This document shows, piece after piece, positions 9,553 through 60,899 of a stretch of 64,000 nucleotides of DNA; within the stretch, counting starts at the first letter, position 1, and each line of letters starts with the position of its first letter. The stretch lies in assembly GCF_009914755.1 (NCBI RefSeq), contig NC_060927.1; one strand, 5' to 3'. The DNA is from the human T2T-CHM13v2.0 reference genome, Homo sapiens. The notes under the pieces were generated by a model. It ran no database searches, had not been told where the DNA came from, and saw only the letters and a program-made list of their open reading frames with translations. The position numbers and the translations under genes were made by a program.

Positions 9553-10600
9553 TCTAATGAACTCGTCAAATTCAACATGCCCAAATACCAACCCCTAAGA
9601 CTTCCAGTTTCAGCTCCAGCATGTAAAGAGCATGGAAGTCATAATCCTTACAACAAGAGAAACTGGACAAAGAAAATCAACAGCTTTTCTTAAACCCATC
9701 AGATAATGGAGTTTGTAGGGCAAATCCCCATATCTGAAGAGACAGACAATCTAGAGTCACAGAAGAAATATGCTTACCTAGAGCAGAAGCCACTGGCACA
9801 ATAAACTGGTAATTTTAACAATTGCTGGAGGCTGAGTTTGGACTGGATAAAAGTCAGCTTAATTAAAAGGCTAACATCCAAGATGTGTGTGTGTGTGTGT
9901 ATGTGTGCATGTGTGCATGTTTGAAAGGCCTTCATGTTTTTGGTTTTGTTTGTTGGTTTGTTTTTCTCTCCTAAGACCTTGTCTTTTGGAGCAAAAGTTT
10001 ATTTTTTTTCTTTTTTTTTCTCAGTTAACTGAATTCTGTTTTCACCTGATTTTTTTTTTTTTTTTTTACTAAACTAGTTATTGCAACAGAATCTACTCTA
10101 GGGATTTTAAGGAAGAGTGTAGTTTAATTTTATGTTTAATTTGGCTCAAAGAAAAATAAAAGTGTCTCCTTCTAGCACTGCCAGATTTTTTTCTCTTTCT
10201 ATTTTATAACGTAAATTTTGCTATTTGATTTTCACCTGAGTTGTTTCCTTTAATGTGAAAATTTTAGACTATTTAGCTGACAACTGCCTAGGGCTATGAA
10301 ACAGGTTATCGAGAAACCGAAAGTCTAAGATAGGAAAAAAAAGGAGGGAGTCTTTGTAAATCTATAAAATGTACTGTAAACAACCAATGGGTTCACTTTG
10401 CCAAGACAGACTGATTTATCAAGATAGGAGAATTGCAATGGAGAAAGAGTAATTCACCCAGAGCCATTGTGCGGGAGACTGGAGTTTTATTATTACTCAA
10501 ATCGATCTCCCTGAGCCTTTGGGGATCAGAGTTTTTAAATATAATTTGGCAGGTAGGGGCTTGGAAAGTAGGGAGTGTTGATTGGTCAAGTTGGAGATGG

Positions 10601-11852
10601 TGAGAGGTGACAGCGTGCTGGCAGTCCTCGCAGCCCTCACTCGCTCTTGGCGCCTCCTCTGCCTGGGTTCCCACTTTGGCAGCACTTGAGGAGCCATTCA
10701 GCCCGCCGCTGCACTGTGGTAGCCCCTTTCTGGGCTGGCCAAGGCCAGAGCCGGCTCCCTCAGCTTGCAGGGAGGTGTGGAGGGAGAGGCGCGGGTGGGA
10801 ACCCTGGCTGTGCGTGGTGCTTGTGGGCCAGCACGAGTTTCCGGTGGGTGTGGGCTCGGTGGGCCCCACACTGGGAGCAGCCGGCAGGCCCCACCGGTCC
10901 CGGGCAGTGAGGGGTCTTAACACCTGGGCCAGCAGCTGCTGCGCTCAATTTCTCACCGGGCCTTAGCTGCCTTCCCTCGGGGCAGGGCTCTGGACCTGCA
11001 GCCCGCCATGCCTGAGCTCCCCCCACCCCCCTGCGCCCCGTGGGCTCCTGTGCGGCCCGAGCCTCCCGACGAGCGCCACCCCCTGCTCCACAGCACCCAG
11101 TCCCATCGACCACCCAAGGGCTGAGGAGTGTGGGCGCAGGGCACAGGACTGGCAGGCAGCTCCACCTGCGGCCCTGGTGCGGGATCCACCGGGTGAAGCC
11201 AGCTGGGCTCCTGAGTCTGGTGGGGACTTGGAGAACCTTTATGTCTAGCTAGGGGATTGTAAATACACCAATCAGCACTCTGTATCTAGCTCAAGGTTTG
11301 TAAACACACCAATCAGCACCCTGTGTCTAACTCAGGGTTTGTGAATGCACCAATCGACACTCTGTATCTAGCTACTCTGGTGGGGACTTGGAGAACCTTT
11401 ATGTCTAGCTCAGGGATTGTAAACTCACCAATCAGCGCCCTGTCAAAACAGACCACTCGGCTCTCTGTAAAATGGACCAATCAGCAGGATGTGGGTGGGG
11501 CCAGATAAGAAAATAAAAGCAGGCTGCCTGAGCCAGCAGTGGCAACCTGCTTGGGTCCCTTTCCACACCGCGGAAGCTTTGTTCTTTTGCTCTTTGCAAT
11601 AAATCTTGCTGCTGCTCACTCTTTGGGTCCACACTGCCTTTATGAGCTGTAACACCGCGAAGGTCCACAGCTTCACTCCTGAGCCAGCGAGACCACGAAC
11701 CCCACCAGAAGGAAGAATCTGTGAACACATCCGAACATCAGAAGGAACAAACTCTAGACATGCCGCCTTTAAGAACTGCAACACTCACTGCGAGTGTCCG
11801 CGGCTTCATTCTTGAAGTCAGTGAGACGAAGAACCCACCAATTCCAGACACA
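10601..11852 (+). mobile_element. LTR12C-type 5' LTR of HERV9
   Basis: TGAGAGGTGACAGCGTGCTGG start, GC/CpG-rich U3, tandem CCAAT repeats (11268-11481), GATA + AATAAA core promoter (11504-11517), poly(A) signal 11598-11603, end ...attccagacaca. Confidence 0.92.
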
Positions 11853-12556
11853 TTTTGGCGACCTAGATGGGACAATCGCCTATCACCGAGTGGTGAGACC
11901 ATCGCCTATAGCTGAGCGGCGAGACAATCACCTATCGCCAAGCAGTGAGTACCATCGGACCCCTTTCGCTTGCTATTCTGTCCTGTCTTTGCTTAGAGTT
12001 CGGGGGCTAAATACTGGGCACCTGTCGGCCAGTTAAAAGTGACTAGCGCGGCTGCCGGACTAAAGACAAGGGTGTCAGGCTTTCTGGGAAAGGGCTTTCT
12101 AACAACTCCCGACTCTTCGGTGTTGAGACCATTGGTTTGCCTAGAACCAGCTTTTGCTTTTCCTGTACTTCTGGGCTGAGCCGAGGGTCAACAGAGAGGA
12201 AAGCCATGCACCTCCGGGGTCCCGACAACAAGTTGGTTGACCCTGCGACCATGAGCGGAACTCTCAAAGGCATGTCGCCCAAGCGAGACTCGCCCATCTA
12301 TCCTATCTATCCTGAGCCTTGCCCCCTGGTTCCTAATGCCTGCCAGACAAACTTCCTCTCTCCTCTCTTCTCTGAGTTTAGTCCCGCTTCTAAAAATTGC
12401 TACCTGTCTCTGGTGCTTTTCTAGTTTCTCCTATAAGAATGATTTCTAGTATAGACTCCGGACACACTGCCTTTAAGAACTGTAACACTCACCACGAGGG
12501 TCCGCGGCTTCATTCTTGAAGTCAGTGAGACCAAGAACCCACCAATTCCGGACACA
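11853..12556 (+). mobile_element. HERV9 leader fused to the last ~100 bp of the 3' LTR (internally deleted provirus)
   Basis: About 600 bp of leader, then a second copy of U5 (about 12455-12556). TSD ATGG/ATGA. Confidence 0.85.
11856..11873 (+). other. Primer-binding site (tRNA-Arg type)
   Basis: TGGCGACCTAGATGGGAC just after the LTR; one mismatch to the complement of the tRNA-Arg(CCG) 3' end as recalled. Confidence 0.8.
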
Positions 12557-15092
12557 ATGAAATCATAGTGGGTCAAAGTTAGGTTTTCTTAATGTCTTCT
12601 GTTACTGTGTGCGATGGCACAACTGGTTGGGCCAGATTACCGATCTGAGTGGTGTCCACTGATCCATCAAGTGCACTGATCTTAGGTTTTACAATAGTGA
12701 TGTTATCCCCAGGAGCAATTTGGTGAGGTTTAGACTCTTGGAGAGGGAGGCTGCATTATCCCTAAACTGTTATTTCCAATCTCGTAGCTAATTGGTTAGT
12801 CCTAGAAAGGCAGACTGGACCCCAGGTAAGAAGTGGGGTCTTTTTGGGAAAGGGCTGTTACCAATTTTGTTTCAGAGTCAAACCTTGAGCTGAATTCCTT
12901 CCCAAAGTTAGCTCGGCCTACGCCCAGGAATGAACAAGGACAGCTTAGAGGTTATGAGCAAGATGGAGCCAGTTAGGGCAAATCTTTTTTCAGTGTCTTA
13001 GTTATAATTTTGCAATGGTGGTTTCACAACTTTAAATCATGACTATCATAGTTTTCATAAATAATCTAGGTAAACAATTAAAATAAAATAATTAGGTAAA
13101 TGTAATGGGATAAATACTTGTAGACAAACTGGTCATAATTTAGAATATAAAGTTAAATTAAATAATAGATATTTTACTATTTGGGCATTTTCCAATAAAT
13201 ATATATTGTAGGAAAACATTCTTGCTAAAAAAAAGTGTGTCTTTAAAAAAAAGGTGAACAAGTTTCGTCTAATTCAAAGCTTAAAGGTTATGTGTAAAAC
13301 AAGGTAAAAGGAACCAGGAAACAAAAAAAGATGCATAGAAAGTTATAAAAATAAAAGAGTTTTTTTAGGTAAAGAAGCTGAAAGAAAAGTAATTTTAGGT
13401 AAGAAAGAATCCTGCATGGTAAATATAGTCCTAAAATAAAATAACTGGTTGTTTAAAAAGAATGTTGAGAACAAATTAGAAAGTCTGACCATGTCATGAG
13501 CGGTCAGTATAAGTCACAATAAGAGGAGATATATATATATATATACACACACACATATATACATATCTTTTATATCATCAGGTTGTCATATTATTATTGT
13601 TTTGGTTTGCTTAGAAATATATATATATATATAAACCTTGGGCACCTGTCAGGACTTCCTGAGGCTGTGTCATGGGCGTGTCCTCAACGTTGGCAAAATA
13701 AACTTTCTGAATTAACTGAGACATGTCTTAAATTTTGGGAGTTCACAAGGGAAACAAGGGTAAGAATTAAACTTCACTAATATTTCTCACCCTCCAAAGC
13801 CACTTCAACCACTGCCTTTCTCATTTCGGTTAATAGCAACTCCAATCTTCCAGCAGTTTAGGCTGCAAAACCTTAGCTCCTCTCTGTCTTACACTTCACA
13901 TCCAATCTGTCACCTATTCAAAGTATCCCCCAAATCGAGCAATTTCTCACCATCTCTTACTAATACACCTCAGGTCCAAACCACCAGTATACCTCCCTAG
14001 AGTACTCCAATAGTCTCCTAAGTAGCTTTCTTGCTTCTATCTCCCTTCAGTTTATTCTTAACAAAGCAGCCTGAGTGGCCCTTTAAAAATATAAATCCAA
14101 TCAGGTAATTCCTCTGCTCATTGCCTTACAATGGGCCATATTTTGATATGGACAGGAGACAGGGAAATACTGGATAGAAGAGGGCAGTTCCCTGGCAAAG
14201 GCCCCACCCTCAAGCTTGGAGACCCATGGCCTTAAATGGGAACAGCCATTTCTGTTTTCGCACCCCAAAAGTTGCCTTTTATCCTGCCATGCTCCCCTAT
14301 CCTGTACCCATATAAACCCCAAACCTCGGGCTCCAGAAGCAGATGAGCAGATGAGGAGACGCCTCTATTCCGTGTCGTTTAGAATGAGCAAACAGTTGTC
14401 TTCACCATCCCAGACAAGCAGATGAATGGTGAAACGATACAGCAGAGAAAGAGAGAAGAGGAACATTTGAACGCCGAGAGGAGTTCAGCCGAGGGTGGTC
14501 GGAGAGGTTTGGCCACCCAGCAGGAAGATTATCTTCCCGTGCCATCCCCGCTTCCAGCTCTGCATCCATCCTTCAGAGAACCACCTCCACCACTCAATAA
14601 AACCCTGCATTCAACCTTCAAGCCCATGTGTGGCCTGATTCTTCCAGGATGCTGGGCAAGAGCTTGGGATACAAAAAGTGGTCACATTGGCCCTCTGCCC
14701 TTGTGAAAAGGCAGAGTGTCCATTGAGCTGATTAACATTCAAGCCATCCATGGACAGCAGGGCTAAAAGGGCACACTGTAACACACCCCCACTTAGGCTC
14801 CTGCACCTGTCCATCTGCATGCTCCCCTCCCCTCAGGGGTTTGAGCGTGTAGCAACAGAACAGGCGAGCCACACCCTGTAAAGCCCTGGGGCAACTGAAG
14901 GTGTTTTTTTGCTGCAAGGCCCCAGGACTGAAGTCTGTTGGCTAAAACCCCCAGATTTTGCTTGATGTCTTCTCTTCTCTCACAGTTTGAAATGGCTCTC
15001 ATCTCTTCCTTTATAATGTTACGGGTTTTGGTTCAGGCTGTGCAATATTAAATAGAATGAGCATTTGGCTCAGCCATCAAAAGTGCAATTCA

Positions 15093-60140: not shown

Positions 60141-60266
60141 TTTGCCCTGCTTAGAACCTGCGGGAGATTTCAAGAGTATACAGTCACAGAAAGTCTATTT
60201 TTCTTCTTCCTACCTGACCTTTTTTTTCTCTCTCTCTCTCTTTTTTTTTTTTTTTTTTGAGATTAC

Positions 60267-60430
60267 CTACCACTTCCAGGGTCAGAGCCCTTCACTTCAT
60301 ATTCATGAGGAGACGGGGAATTGGAATATACCCGCAGCCGACAATCTCAGTGTGAAATACTGGTTTACTGTTTGGAGAACAATAGACAATGATCAACAAC
60401 TGAAGAGCTGAGCTGGTCTTCATCCTGTGC
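60267..60430 (-). other. TM4SF18: Probable non-coding exon 1 / TSS region of TM4SF18
   Basis: Tandem donors GTG|GTAG|GTAATC at 60270/60266, about 110 nt upstream of the exon 2 acceptor. The 5' boundary cannot be determined from sequence. Confidence 0.5.
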
Positions 60431-60899
60431 CAAAGGAATGCGGTGTTTTTCACTGCTTTTTAAAATAAGTAATTTTCCTCTGGATTAAAGCACCGAAGGC
60501 TTAACCCTGACCTTGTGTTAAGAAGGAAGTTGGGGTGGGAACTGGAATTGAATGCAGCAAATTTCATCCAACAGTGGAGAGAGGGTTAAAGAGAAAACTA
60601 CCAAGGAGGCTTATATTTAGAGCTTGATAGGTTTGTTAAAATATCCTGACTTTACCCTTTTTATGTATCTGTCTTTCACCTAGTGTGCTTTTTGTGTGCA
60701 CACTATTCACCAAGCTTTGTTCAAATTGCAAGGGATAAGAAAGGACTGAGAAAGTGACTGGTGGATGAGAAAAACAAAATATCTTGGTTAGATCAGTACA
60801 GCTTTCCTTCCAAGAGTTTGCATCTATTATCTCTACCTCTCTGAAAAATCATAACAGAAATAAAGGCATATTTTTCCTACTATTAAGAAAACAAAGGTA

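What the first reader, a model, noticed from the sequence alone, without database searches (positions are those of the whole stretch)
10601..12556. Collapsed HERV9 retaining promoter, PBS and splice donor: candidate driver of a transcript antisense to TM4SF18
Seen: complete LTR12C-type LTR, PBS, leader with donor gca|GTGAGT (GT at 11945), then a jump to the last ~100 bp of the 3' LTR. The junction is at an actcc-gac microhomology (about 12455) and lies downstream of that LTR's poly(A) signal, so the 3' terminator is lost. Known: LTR12C elements are NF-Y-driven promoters activated in germline, tumours and by DNMT/HDAC inhibitors. Inference: plus-strand transcripts starting near 11540 could splice and read toward minus-strand TM4SF18, and divergently from CPHL1P. 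I recall an antisense lncRNA annotated at TM4SF18 but cannot verify its start here.
Basis: partly seen in the sequence, partly recalled or inferred. Interest (0 to 1): 0.7.

Follow-up and report, generated by a model that had tools for sequence, protein, structure and literature searches.

The report
Retroviral promoter drives annotated TM4SF18 antisense RNA
A gutted ancient retrovirus (HERV9) supplies the promoter, the whole first exon and the splice donor of the already annotated non-coding RNA TM4SF18-AS1, an ordinary case of a well-known phenomenon.

Summary
Window 10601-12556 is one HERV9 integration flanked by a 4-bp target duplication (ATGG/ATGA). It consists of a 1252-bp LTR12-type 5' LTR, a tRNA-Arg primer-binding site, a ~600-bp leader, and then a jump to the last 102 bp of the 3' LTR. 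The jump lies inside an imperfect microhomology, AACTCC(A)GGAC.

The LTR start-site motif GCCAGCAGTGGC (11532-11543) contains the RefSeq start of TM4SF18-AS1 (11541). The leader donor GCA|GTGAGT (11944|11945) is the RefSeq end of exon 1, and it is conserved in 11 of 11 other HERV9 copies examined.

Exon 2 (60262-60510) has a clean acceptor and an ATTAAA signal. It covers TM4SF18 exon 1 in antisense and ends 116 nt upstream of the TM4SF18 start. The 48,317-nt intron runs antisense through the rest of TM4SF18.

No paper in the searched library names the retroviral origin of this lncRNA. Any effect on TM4SF18 is untested.

A practical aside: the published qPCR primers for AC093001.1 lie inside the LTR repeat.

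The parts
10597..10600 (.). 5' copy of the 4-bp target-site duplication (ATGG)
   Evidence: The flanks are adjacent in 11 of 11 other copies of the host repeat, with a single ATGG in 9 of 11. The BLAST ends overlap by exactly 4 nt in 6 of 11 directly, and in 2 more by extrapolation.
10601..11852 (+). HERV9 5' LTR (LTR12C/D/E type), 1252 bp with TG...CA ends. 10601-11215 is a GC-rich 5' extension; ~11216-11486 holds 41-nt U3 repeats; R starts at 11541.
   Evidence: One search gives GC 0.70 and CpG o/e 0.43 for 10601-11215. The ~600-nt extension and the 41-nt repeats are described in PMC11853044 section 5.
11268..11481 (+). Five plus-strand CCAAT boxes (11268, 11309, 11350, 11428, 11477), with two TCTGTATCTAGCT (GATA-type) and two GTGGGGA (MZF1-like) motifs nearby
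   Evidence: (family D4). Motif names come from PMC11853044. The window-wide CCAAT rate is 146 per 64 kb on both strands.
11493..11543 (+). Core promoter: GGGTGGGGC (Sp1-like, 11493), AATAAAA (11512-11518, -29), start-site motif GCCAGCAGTGGC (11532-11543) holding the RefSeq start 11541
   Evidence: This is the only GCCAGCAGTGGC in the 64-kb window. The motif roles come from PMC11853044 section 5.
11541..11944 (+). TM4SF18-AS1 exon 1 (404 nt), wholly retroviral: R, U5, primer-binding site and start of the leader
   Evidence: Hub RefSeq table, plus the anatomy.
11598..11603 (+). LTR poly(A) hexamer AATAAA, 57 nt after the start, read through by the annotated exon 1
   Evidence: and the hub table.
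11856..11873 (+). Primer-binding site, 17 of 18 complementary to tRNA-Arg(CCG) plus CCA
   Evidence: The PBS string of 4 of 11 other copies hits a gene on contig 17 that ARAGORN calls tRNA-Arg(ccg). The window differs from that string by one base (T at 11864).
11871..11957 (+). 26-nt tandem repeats of the leader (3.3 units), the last of which carries the donor
   Evidence: (family D6). Copy number varies among other copies.
11945..11950 (+). Retroviral leader splice donor GTGAGT (exon|intron 11944|11945)
   Evidence: unique in the element. (CAGTGAGTACC identical in 11 of 11 other copies). The hub table gives the exon end as 11944.
11853..12454 (+). Retained HERV9 internal sequence (PBS plus leader, ~600 bp)
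   Evidence: 87-93% identity to other copies, and none of the non-self matches reaches the last base of the query.
12451..12463 (+). Deletion junction inside the imperfect microhomology AACTCC(A)GGAC
   Evidence: 9 of 11 other copies read AACTCCAGGAC in the leader at this point and then continue with unrelated internal sequence.
12455..12556 (+). Last 102 nt of the 3' LTR (end of U5), with no poly(A) hexamer
   Evidence: D3; up to 98% identity to other LTR ends.
12557..12560 (.). 3' copy of the target-site duplication (ATGA)
60229..60261 (+). Polypyrimidine tract and AG acceptor of exon 2
   Evidence: CTCTCTCTCTCT, then T18, then GAG|ATTACC.
60262..60510 (+). TM4SF18-AS1 exon 2 (249 nt). It overlaps all 124 nt of TM4SF18 exon 1 (60271-60394, minus strand) and 116 nt of its upstream promoter region.
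   Evidence: Hub table.
60484..60489 (+). ATTAAA poly(A) signal 21 nt before the annotated 3' end, followed by TGTGTT

Best explanation
A single HERV9 provirus integrated here into an older repeat, making a 4-bp duplication. It later lost everything between its leader and the last 102 bp of its 3' LTR, through a deletion joined at a ~10-nt microhomology. What remains is a self-contained transcription-initiation module.

The module works as follows. The U3 carries CCAAT/GATA/G-rich repeats, which are the NF-Y-type enhancer of LTR12 elements. The core promoter has an Sp1-like site, AATAAAA, and the GCCAGCAGTGGC initiator. Transcription starts at 11541 and reads through the weak, cap-proximal AATAAA at 11598. 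It continues through U5 and the primer-binding site to the retrovirus's own major splice donor at 11944|11945.

The viral acceptors and the 3' LTR terminator are gone. The donor therefore pairs with the first usable host acceptor that survives, 48.3 kb downstream at 60261|60262. The RNA ends at an ATTAAA signal inside the TM4SF18 promoter. The product is the annotated 653-nt, two-exon lncRNA TM4SF18-AS1 (AC093001.1).

Shown: the anatomy, the single-integration origin, and the coincidence of every annotated transcript boundary with a canonical signal. Inferred: NF-Y dependence, that the deletion redirected the donor to the host acceptor, and any consequence for TM4SF18. Possible consequences would be convergent transcription through the whole gene or a 124-bp sense/antisense exon overlap.
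For: - Anatomy.
- One integration: the flanks are adjacent in 11 of 11 other copies of the host repeat, and a 4-nt duplication ATGG/ATGA is present.
- HERV9 identity: leader matches of 87-93%, and a PBS that is 17 of 18 complementary to tRNA-Arg(CCG).
- Deletion junction: internal homology ends at 12459-12463 and LTR-end homology starts at 12455 in 9 of 11 loci. The junction is private to this locus: among 40 scored of 2912 candidates, no other match starts before query base 84, which is window 12443.
- Promoter motifs sit at the positions the LTR12 review describes. The start lies within GCCAGCAGTGGC at about 70% of LTR length (here 75%), AATAAAA is about 30 nt upstream (here 29), an Sp1 site is just upstream, and there are five CCAAT repeats.
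- The donor is conserved in 11 of 11 copies.
- Acceptor, ATTAAA and end of exon 2.
- The transcript model itself comes from the hub's RefSeq table.
- The RNA is detected in tumour data sets under the alias AC093001.1 (passages; listing).
Against: - I saw no primary expression data (CAGE, long reads). The transcript model is taken from the hub's table.
- The LTR has CpG o/e of 0.43. This is the signature of long germ-line methylation, so it is probably silent in most cells.
- It has only five CCAAT units, the low end of the 5-17 range given in the review.
- The base just before AATAAAA is A here and G in 11 of 11 other copies. The effect is unknown.
- Solitary LTR12Cs also drive spliced lncRNAs, for example SChLAP1. 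The deletion is therefore not required for promoter exaptation, and its causal role is inference.
- Some transcripts may stop at the 11598 signal.
- The subfamily label 'C' could not be tested.
Confidence: 0.9

Rival explanations
1. The RNA is a cis-regulator of TM4SF18. LTR-driven transcription runs antisense through the entire gene and terminates in its promoter. It would lower or tune TM4SF18 output by transcriptional interference, or through the 124-bp exon-1 duplex.
For: The geometry is consistent. The intron 11945-60261 contains TM4SF18 exons 2-6. Exon 2 covers exon 1 and ends 116 nt upstream of the TM4SF18 start (hub table).
Against: No data bear on this. None of the passages I read on AC093001.1 mentions TM4SF18 regulation. 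Most LTR-initiated antisense RNAs have no demonstrated effect.
Confidence: 0.15
2. The transcript is a functionless by-product of sporadic LTR12 derepression. An orphan retroviral donor happens to find a strong T-tract acceptor. Its tumour 'signature' value reflects global LTR12C activity or TM4SF18 expression rather than a role of its own.
For: - Both exons are confounded. Exon 1 is a repeat with 3649 first-look candidates in the genome, and exon 2 overlaps TM4SF18 exon 1 (hub table).
- The published qPCR primers lie in the LTR and have 662 and 77 genomic sites at one mismatch or fewer.
- There are no ORFs longer than 57 codons.
- CpG decay indicates habitual silencing.
Against: PMC9630733 reports slower proliferation after interference with AC093001.1 in a kidney-cancer line (passage). 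I did not see the reagents or their specificity. Spatially restricted expression in luminal breast tumour regions is reported in a preprint.
Confidence: 0.6
3. The annotated 5' end is a truncated cDNA. The true promoter lies upstream of the LTR and the LTR is merely exonised.
For: I could not inspect the evidence behind NR_186251.1.
Against: The annotated start falls inside the 12-nt motif at which active LTR12C elements are reported to initiate, 29 nt after AATAAAA. A random truncation point would hit that 12-nt motif by chance with a probability of roughly 1% over the 1252-bp LTR.
Confidence: 0.04

Closest known systems
SChLAP1, PRLH1/LINC01419, TST1 and LINC01194: lncRNAs promoted by LTR12C (Table 1 of PMC11853044; Table 3 of PMC5134097)
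   Same: A sense-oriented LTR12-type LTR is the promoter and part of the first exon of a spliced lncRNA. It has the same CCAAT-repeat enhancer and start-site motif.
   Different: The SChLAP1 promoter is described as a solitary LTR. Here the leader of the provirus survives and its own donor is used, so the entire first exon and the donor are retroviral. This RNA is also antisense to a neighbouring gene.
lincRNA-ROR, initiated in the 5' LTR7 of a HERV-H with an exon partly made of internal ERV sequence (PMC5134097, Fig. 3 legend)
   Same: A 5' LTR promoter plus internal proviral sequence forms the first exon.
   Different: It belongs to a different ERV family and its provirus is described as full-length. 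Here all coding sequence, the viral acceptors and the 3' terminator are deleted.
CDKN2A-AS1, partially encoded by LTR12C (Table 1 of PMC11853044)
   Same: An LTR12C contributes to an antisense RNA of a cellular gene.
   Different: I saw only the table row. Its architecture was not compared.
ERV9 sense-orientation splice events outside the LTR (van de Lagemaat et al. 2006, as summarised in PMC11853044 section 10)
   Same: The splice site used lies in internal ERV9 sequence, not in the LTR.
   Different: Those are 12 events within host genes. I did not check whether this donor position is among them.

Membership tests
HERV9 / ERV9 provirus (class I endogenous retrovirus) | LTRs with TG...CA termini bounded by a short target-site duplication | tested here: met
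   TG lies at 10601 and CA at 12555-12556. The 4-nt duplication is ATGG/ATGA, 3 of 4 identical. The flanks are adjacent in 11 of 11 other copies of the host repeat.
HERV9 / ERV9 provirus (class I endogenous retrovirus) | Primer-binding site complementary to the 3' end of tRNA-Arg. That this defines ERV9 is recalled, not read here. | tested here: met
   The window PBS differs at one of 18 positions from the PBS string of 4 of 11 other copies. That string matches a gene called tRNA-Arg(ccg) by ARAGORN.
HERV9 / ERV9 provirus (class I endogenous retrovirus) | Leader homologous to that of other copies lying between LTR12-type LTRs and internal sequence | tested here: met
   One search gives 87-93% identity over ~600 nt. 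One search shows the same loci carrying the LTR upstream.
HERV9 / ERV9 provirus (class I endogenous retrovirus) | gag, pol and env region and a full 3' LTR | tested here: not met
   These are deleted. The leader joins directly to the last 102 nt of the 3' LTR. It is a remnant, not a provirus in the full sense.
LTR12C subfamily | About 600-nt 5' extension (shared with LTR12D and E), 41-nt U3 repeats with CCAAT, GATA and G-rich motifs | tested here: met
   10601-11215 precedes the repeats. TRF reports a period of 41. The criteria come from PMC11853044 section 5.
LTR12C subfamily | Start-site motif GCCAGCAGTGGC at about 70% of the LTR, with AATAAAA about 30 nt upstream | tested here: met
   The motif lies at 11532-11543, the start is at 75% of the LTR, and AATAAAA is at -29.
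LTR12C subfamily | Best match to the LTR12C model rather than LTR12D, E or others (Repbase/Dfam) | not testable with these tools
No repeat-family library was on hand.
LTR-initiated lncRNA | Transcript start inside the LTR in sense orientation | tested here: met
   The RefSeq start 11541 (hub table) falls in the LTR's initiator motif. The primary evidence for the model was not seen.
LTR-initiated lncRNA | Expression dependent on the LTR (NF-Y, response to DNMT/HDAC inhibitors) | not testable with these tools
   No expression or perturbation data for this locus were available.
Head-to-head natural antisense transcript | Exonic overlap with the sense gene on the opposite strand | tested here: met
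   The overlap is 124 nt with TM4SF18 exon 1 (hub table).
Head-to-head natural antisense transcript | Regulatory effect on the sense gene | not tested
   No data exist, and no paper was found linking the two.

The most novel reading that the evidence does not exclude
The internal collapse of the provirus is what made this LTR a long-range regulator. Removing the viral acceptors and the 3' terminator left an orphan, family-conserved donor. That donor forces polymerase to travel 48 kb antisense through all of TM4SF18 and to terminate in its promoter. Epigenetic derepression of this one LTR12 element (in tumours, in the germ line, or after DNMT/HDAC inhibitors) would then directly switch TM4SF18 down in cis. 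On this reading, the ccRCC and breast 'AC093001.1' signatures read out that switch.
Probability: 0.12. Interest if true: 0.4.

Novelty: already known. Interest (0 to 1): 0.18.

Why it matters
As biology it adds one more example to a long list of LTR12C-promoted lncRNAs, so it matters little.

Its practical value lies elsewhere. The gene appears as AC093001.1 in 13 papers in the searched library, mostly tumour prognostic signatures by their titles. None of those papers also contains 'retrovir'. No paper couples TM4SF18 with LTR12 or ERV9 terms.

Knowing that exon 1 is a high-copy retroviral repeat, and that exon 2 is the mirror image of TM4SF18 exon 1, bears on how such measurements should be read. 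This applies to unstranded RNA-seq and to qPCR with primers inside the LTR.

Tried and rejected
- The first tRNA pattern, which excluded G before the PBS core, hit one site on contig 5 with no tRNA. The second pattern found the tRNA-Arg(ccg) gene.
- A simple 9-position donor-consensus count did not single out 11945. It scored 6 of 9, tied with five other GT sites, and one site scored 7. The exact hexamer GTGAGT and conservation across copies are the better arguments.
- Dating. There are 11 differences in 102 nt between the two LTR pieces (K2P 0.119, 5 in CpG context). This is too short to date the insertion. I only note that it is not in conflict with the 30-to-6-million-year activity span given in PMC11853044.
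- Looking up TM4SF18-AS1 in PMC12519442 found nothing in the held part of the text.
- Considered and rejected: two independent insertions or recombination between two proviruses (rejected by the shared duplication and contiguous flanks); and a retrotransposed or duplicated deleted variant (no other locus spans the junction among those scored, which is a lower bound).
Supplementary tables of LTR12/TINAT studies were not searched and could list this locus.

Full report
**What is there**

The sequence at 10601-12556 reads, in order, as follows.
- An LTR runs from TG at 10601 to CA at 11852 (1252 bp).
- Four T's follow, then an 18-nt primer-binding site at 11856-11873.
- About 600 bp of retroviral leader comes next. 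It includes 3.3 units of a 26-nt tandem repeat.
- The last element is a 102-nt stretch (12455-12556) that repeats the last 102 nt of the LTR at 89% identity (family D3).

The LTR has three parts. The first ~615 bp are GC-rich (70% GC). A block of 41-nt repeats follows, carrying five plus-strand CCAAT boxes at 11268-11481. Then comes a core promoter.

**It is HERV9, and it is one integration**

The leader finds 40 non-self matches in the window's own genome, from 40 scored of 462 candidates. Identity is 87-93%, one short piece excepted, and none reaches the last base of the query.

Eleven of these loci were fetched. In them the same LTR lies upstream, and unrelated internal sequence continues downstream.

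The primer-binding site differs at one base (T at 11864) from the string carried by 4 of 11 other copies. That string matches the 3' end of a gene that ARAGORN calls tRNA-Arg(ccg).

The element sits inside an older interspersed repeat, which has 1742 first-look candidates, 40 of them scored at 85-89% identity. In 11 of 11 fetched copies of that repeat the two flanks are adjacent and share one tetranucleotide. That tetranucleotide is ATGG in 9 of 11. In the window it appears twice, as ATGG before the LTR and ATGA after the remnant. Both ends therefore belong to the same integration event, with a 4-bp target duplication that has since picked up one substitution.

**The collapse**

Homology to other copies' internal sequence runs to 12463 in 9 of 11 loci and to 12459 in 2 of 11. 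Homology to LTR ends starts at 12455 in 9 of 11.

At this point 9 of 11 other leaders read AACTCCAGGAC. The window's 3' LTR remnant opens ACTCCGGAC (12455-12463), and the window reads GACTCCGGAC across the junction.

A junction-spanning query found only the window's own locus across the junction. Among the other matches, from 40 scored of 2912 candidates, none began before query base 84. The deletion looks private to this locus, with the caveat that only the best candidates are scored.

The remnant corresponds to LTR positions at least 153 nt past the AATAAA at 11598 and has no poly(A) hexamer. Also lost are all coding sequence and, with it, the viral splice acceptors (an inference from retroviral organisation).

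**The promoter and the transcript**

The review PMC11853044 (section 5 read in full) describes active LTR12C elements as follows.
- They start within GCCAGCAGTGGC at about 70% of the LTR.
- AATAAAA lies about 30 nt upstream, with an Sp1 site just before it.
- The U3 repeats carry CCAAT (NF-Y), TCTGTATCTAGCT (GATA) and GTGGGGA (MZF1-like) motifs.

The window shows all of these features.
- GCCAGCAGTGGC occurs once in 64 kb, at 11532-11543.
- AATAAAA lies at 11512.
- GGGTGGGGC lies at 11493.
- There are five CCAAT boxes, two GATA-type motifs and two GTGGGGA motifs.

The hub's RefSeq row places the start of TM4SF18-AS1 at 11541. That is inside the initiator motif, 75% along the LTR and 29 nt after AATAAAA. 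It places the end of exon 1 at 11944. The next six bases are GTGAGT, the only such hexamer in the element. The surrounding CAGTGAGTACC is identical in 11 of 11 other HERV9 copies, so this is the family's own leader donor.

Exon 2 starts at 60262, after CT repeats, a run of 18 T's and then GAG. It ends at 60510, 21 nt after an ATTAAA and just before TGTGTT.

The spliced RNA is 653 nt and has no ORF longer than 57 codons. Exon 2 covers all 124 nt of TM4SF18 exon 1 on the other strand and stops 116 nt upstream of the TM4SF18 start. The 48,317-nt intron contains the rest of TM4SF18 (hub table).

**How it most likely works**

Shown:
- The retroviral module is intact where it needs to be, namely enhancer repeats, core promoter, initiator and donor.
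- Every annotated boundary of the lncRNA coincides with a canonical signal.

Inferred from what is established for the family:
- NF-Y-dependent initiation.
- Silencing by DNA methylation in most tissues. The LTR's CpG o/e of 0.43 fits long-term germ-line methylation.
- Activation in germ line, in tumours, or after DNMT/HDAC inhibition.
- Read-through of the cap-proximal AATAAA at 11598, as retroviral 5' LTRs generally do.
- That the donor, deprived of viral acceptors and of the 3' terminator, pairs with a strong host acceptor 48 kb away.

The last step is plausible but not demonstrated. Solitary LTR12Cs also promote spliced lncRNAs (SChLAP1; PMC5134097 passages). Whether the RNA or its transcription affects TM4SF18 is open.

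**What is known**

LTR12C promoters of genes and lncRNAs are reviewed at length (PMC11853044, PMC5134097).

TM4SF18-AS1 is in RefSeq. Its alias AC093001.1 (preprint passage) occurs in 13 papers of the library (listing). Three were looked at in passages.
- A spatial-transcriptomics preprint places it with ESR1 in a luminal tumour domain.
- PMC12015155 reports it as lower in triple-negative than in luminal B HER2+ breast tumours.
- PMC9630733 uses it in a kidney-cancer signature and reports slower proliferation after interference.

No paper in the library combines any of the following pairs:
- TM4SF18 with LTR12C or LTR12.
- TM4SF18 with ERV9 or HERV9.
- TM4SF18 with ERV-9 or HERV-9.
- AC093001.1 with 'retrovir'.

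Supplements and about 1.7 million unsearched articles could still hold it. I therefore rate the object as already known: an annotated transcript of a well-known class. Its retroviral origin is simply unremarked in the papers that use it.

**A practical by-product**

The AC093001.1 qPCR primers printed in PMC9630733 map to 11570-11589 and 11641-11660, inside R/U5 of the LTR.
- The forward primer has 662 genomic sites at one mismatch or fewer (11 perfect).
- The reverse target has 77 such sites (18 perfect).
- Among the places listed, only this locus is perfect for both.
- At least one other locus (contig 1, about 77.37 Mb) has both at one mismatch each, with the same 91-nt spacing. The list for the forward primer is truncated, so this is a lower bound.

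Exon 1 as a whole is at most 91% identical to its nearest scored paralogues (40 scored of 3649 candidates). Reads of ordinary length should therefore mostly map uniquely. Exon 2, however, is indistinguishable from TM4SF18 exon 1 in unstranded data (inference).

**Verdict**

The object is ordinary and already annotated, so interest is low.

Noticed in passing
window 11570-11589 and 11641-11660: The published qPCR primers for AC093001.1 (PMC9630733, Table 1) both lie inside the LTR R/U5 repeat. They have 662 and 77 genomic sites at one mismatch or fewer. At least one other locus could give the same 91-nt amplicon, so the assay may partly report other LTR12 loci.
   Followed up: partly
window ~10300-10600 and 12557-~12900: The provirus is inserted in an older interspersed repeat with 1742 first-look candidates in the genome, 85-89% identical among those scored. 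I could not name the family.
   Followed up: partly
window 11751-11852 versus 12455-12556: The 5' LTR's terminal 102 nt are more diverged from 14 other LTR ends (median 88.0% identity) than the 3' remnant is (median 92.2%). Three of the 14 loci were chosen by similarity to the remnant, which biases the comparison. The asymmetry is unexplained and the sample is small.
   Followed up: partly
window 11566-11572: The window reads CCGCGG where 10 of 11 other copies read CTGTGG and the eleventh has a 2-nt gap. This copy therefore carries two CpGs just after the start site that its relatives lack.
   Followed up: no
window 11885 (alignment gap), loci L007-L010 and L012: 5 of 11 other HERV9 copies carry an extra ~19-nt piece of the 26-nt leader repeat upstream of the donor. 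The copy number of this repeat therefore varies within the family.
   Followed up: no
window 60229-60270: The acceptor of TM4SF18-AS1 exon 2 is formed by a long CT/T tract, which is a GA/A tract in TM4SF18 intron 1. It lies only 9 nt from the TM4SF18 exon 1 donor on the other strand.
   Followed up: no
L030:1502-1575 (minus strand): A tRNA-Arg(CCG) gene on contig 17 has a 3' end that is perfectly complementary to the PBS string carried by 4 of 11 HERV9 copies.
   Followed up: yes
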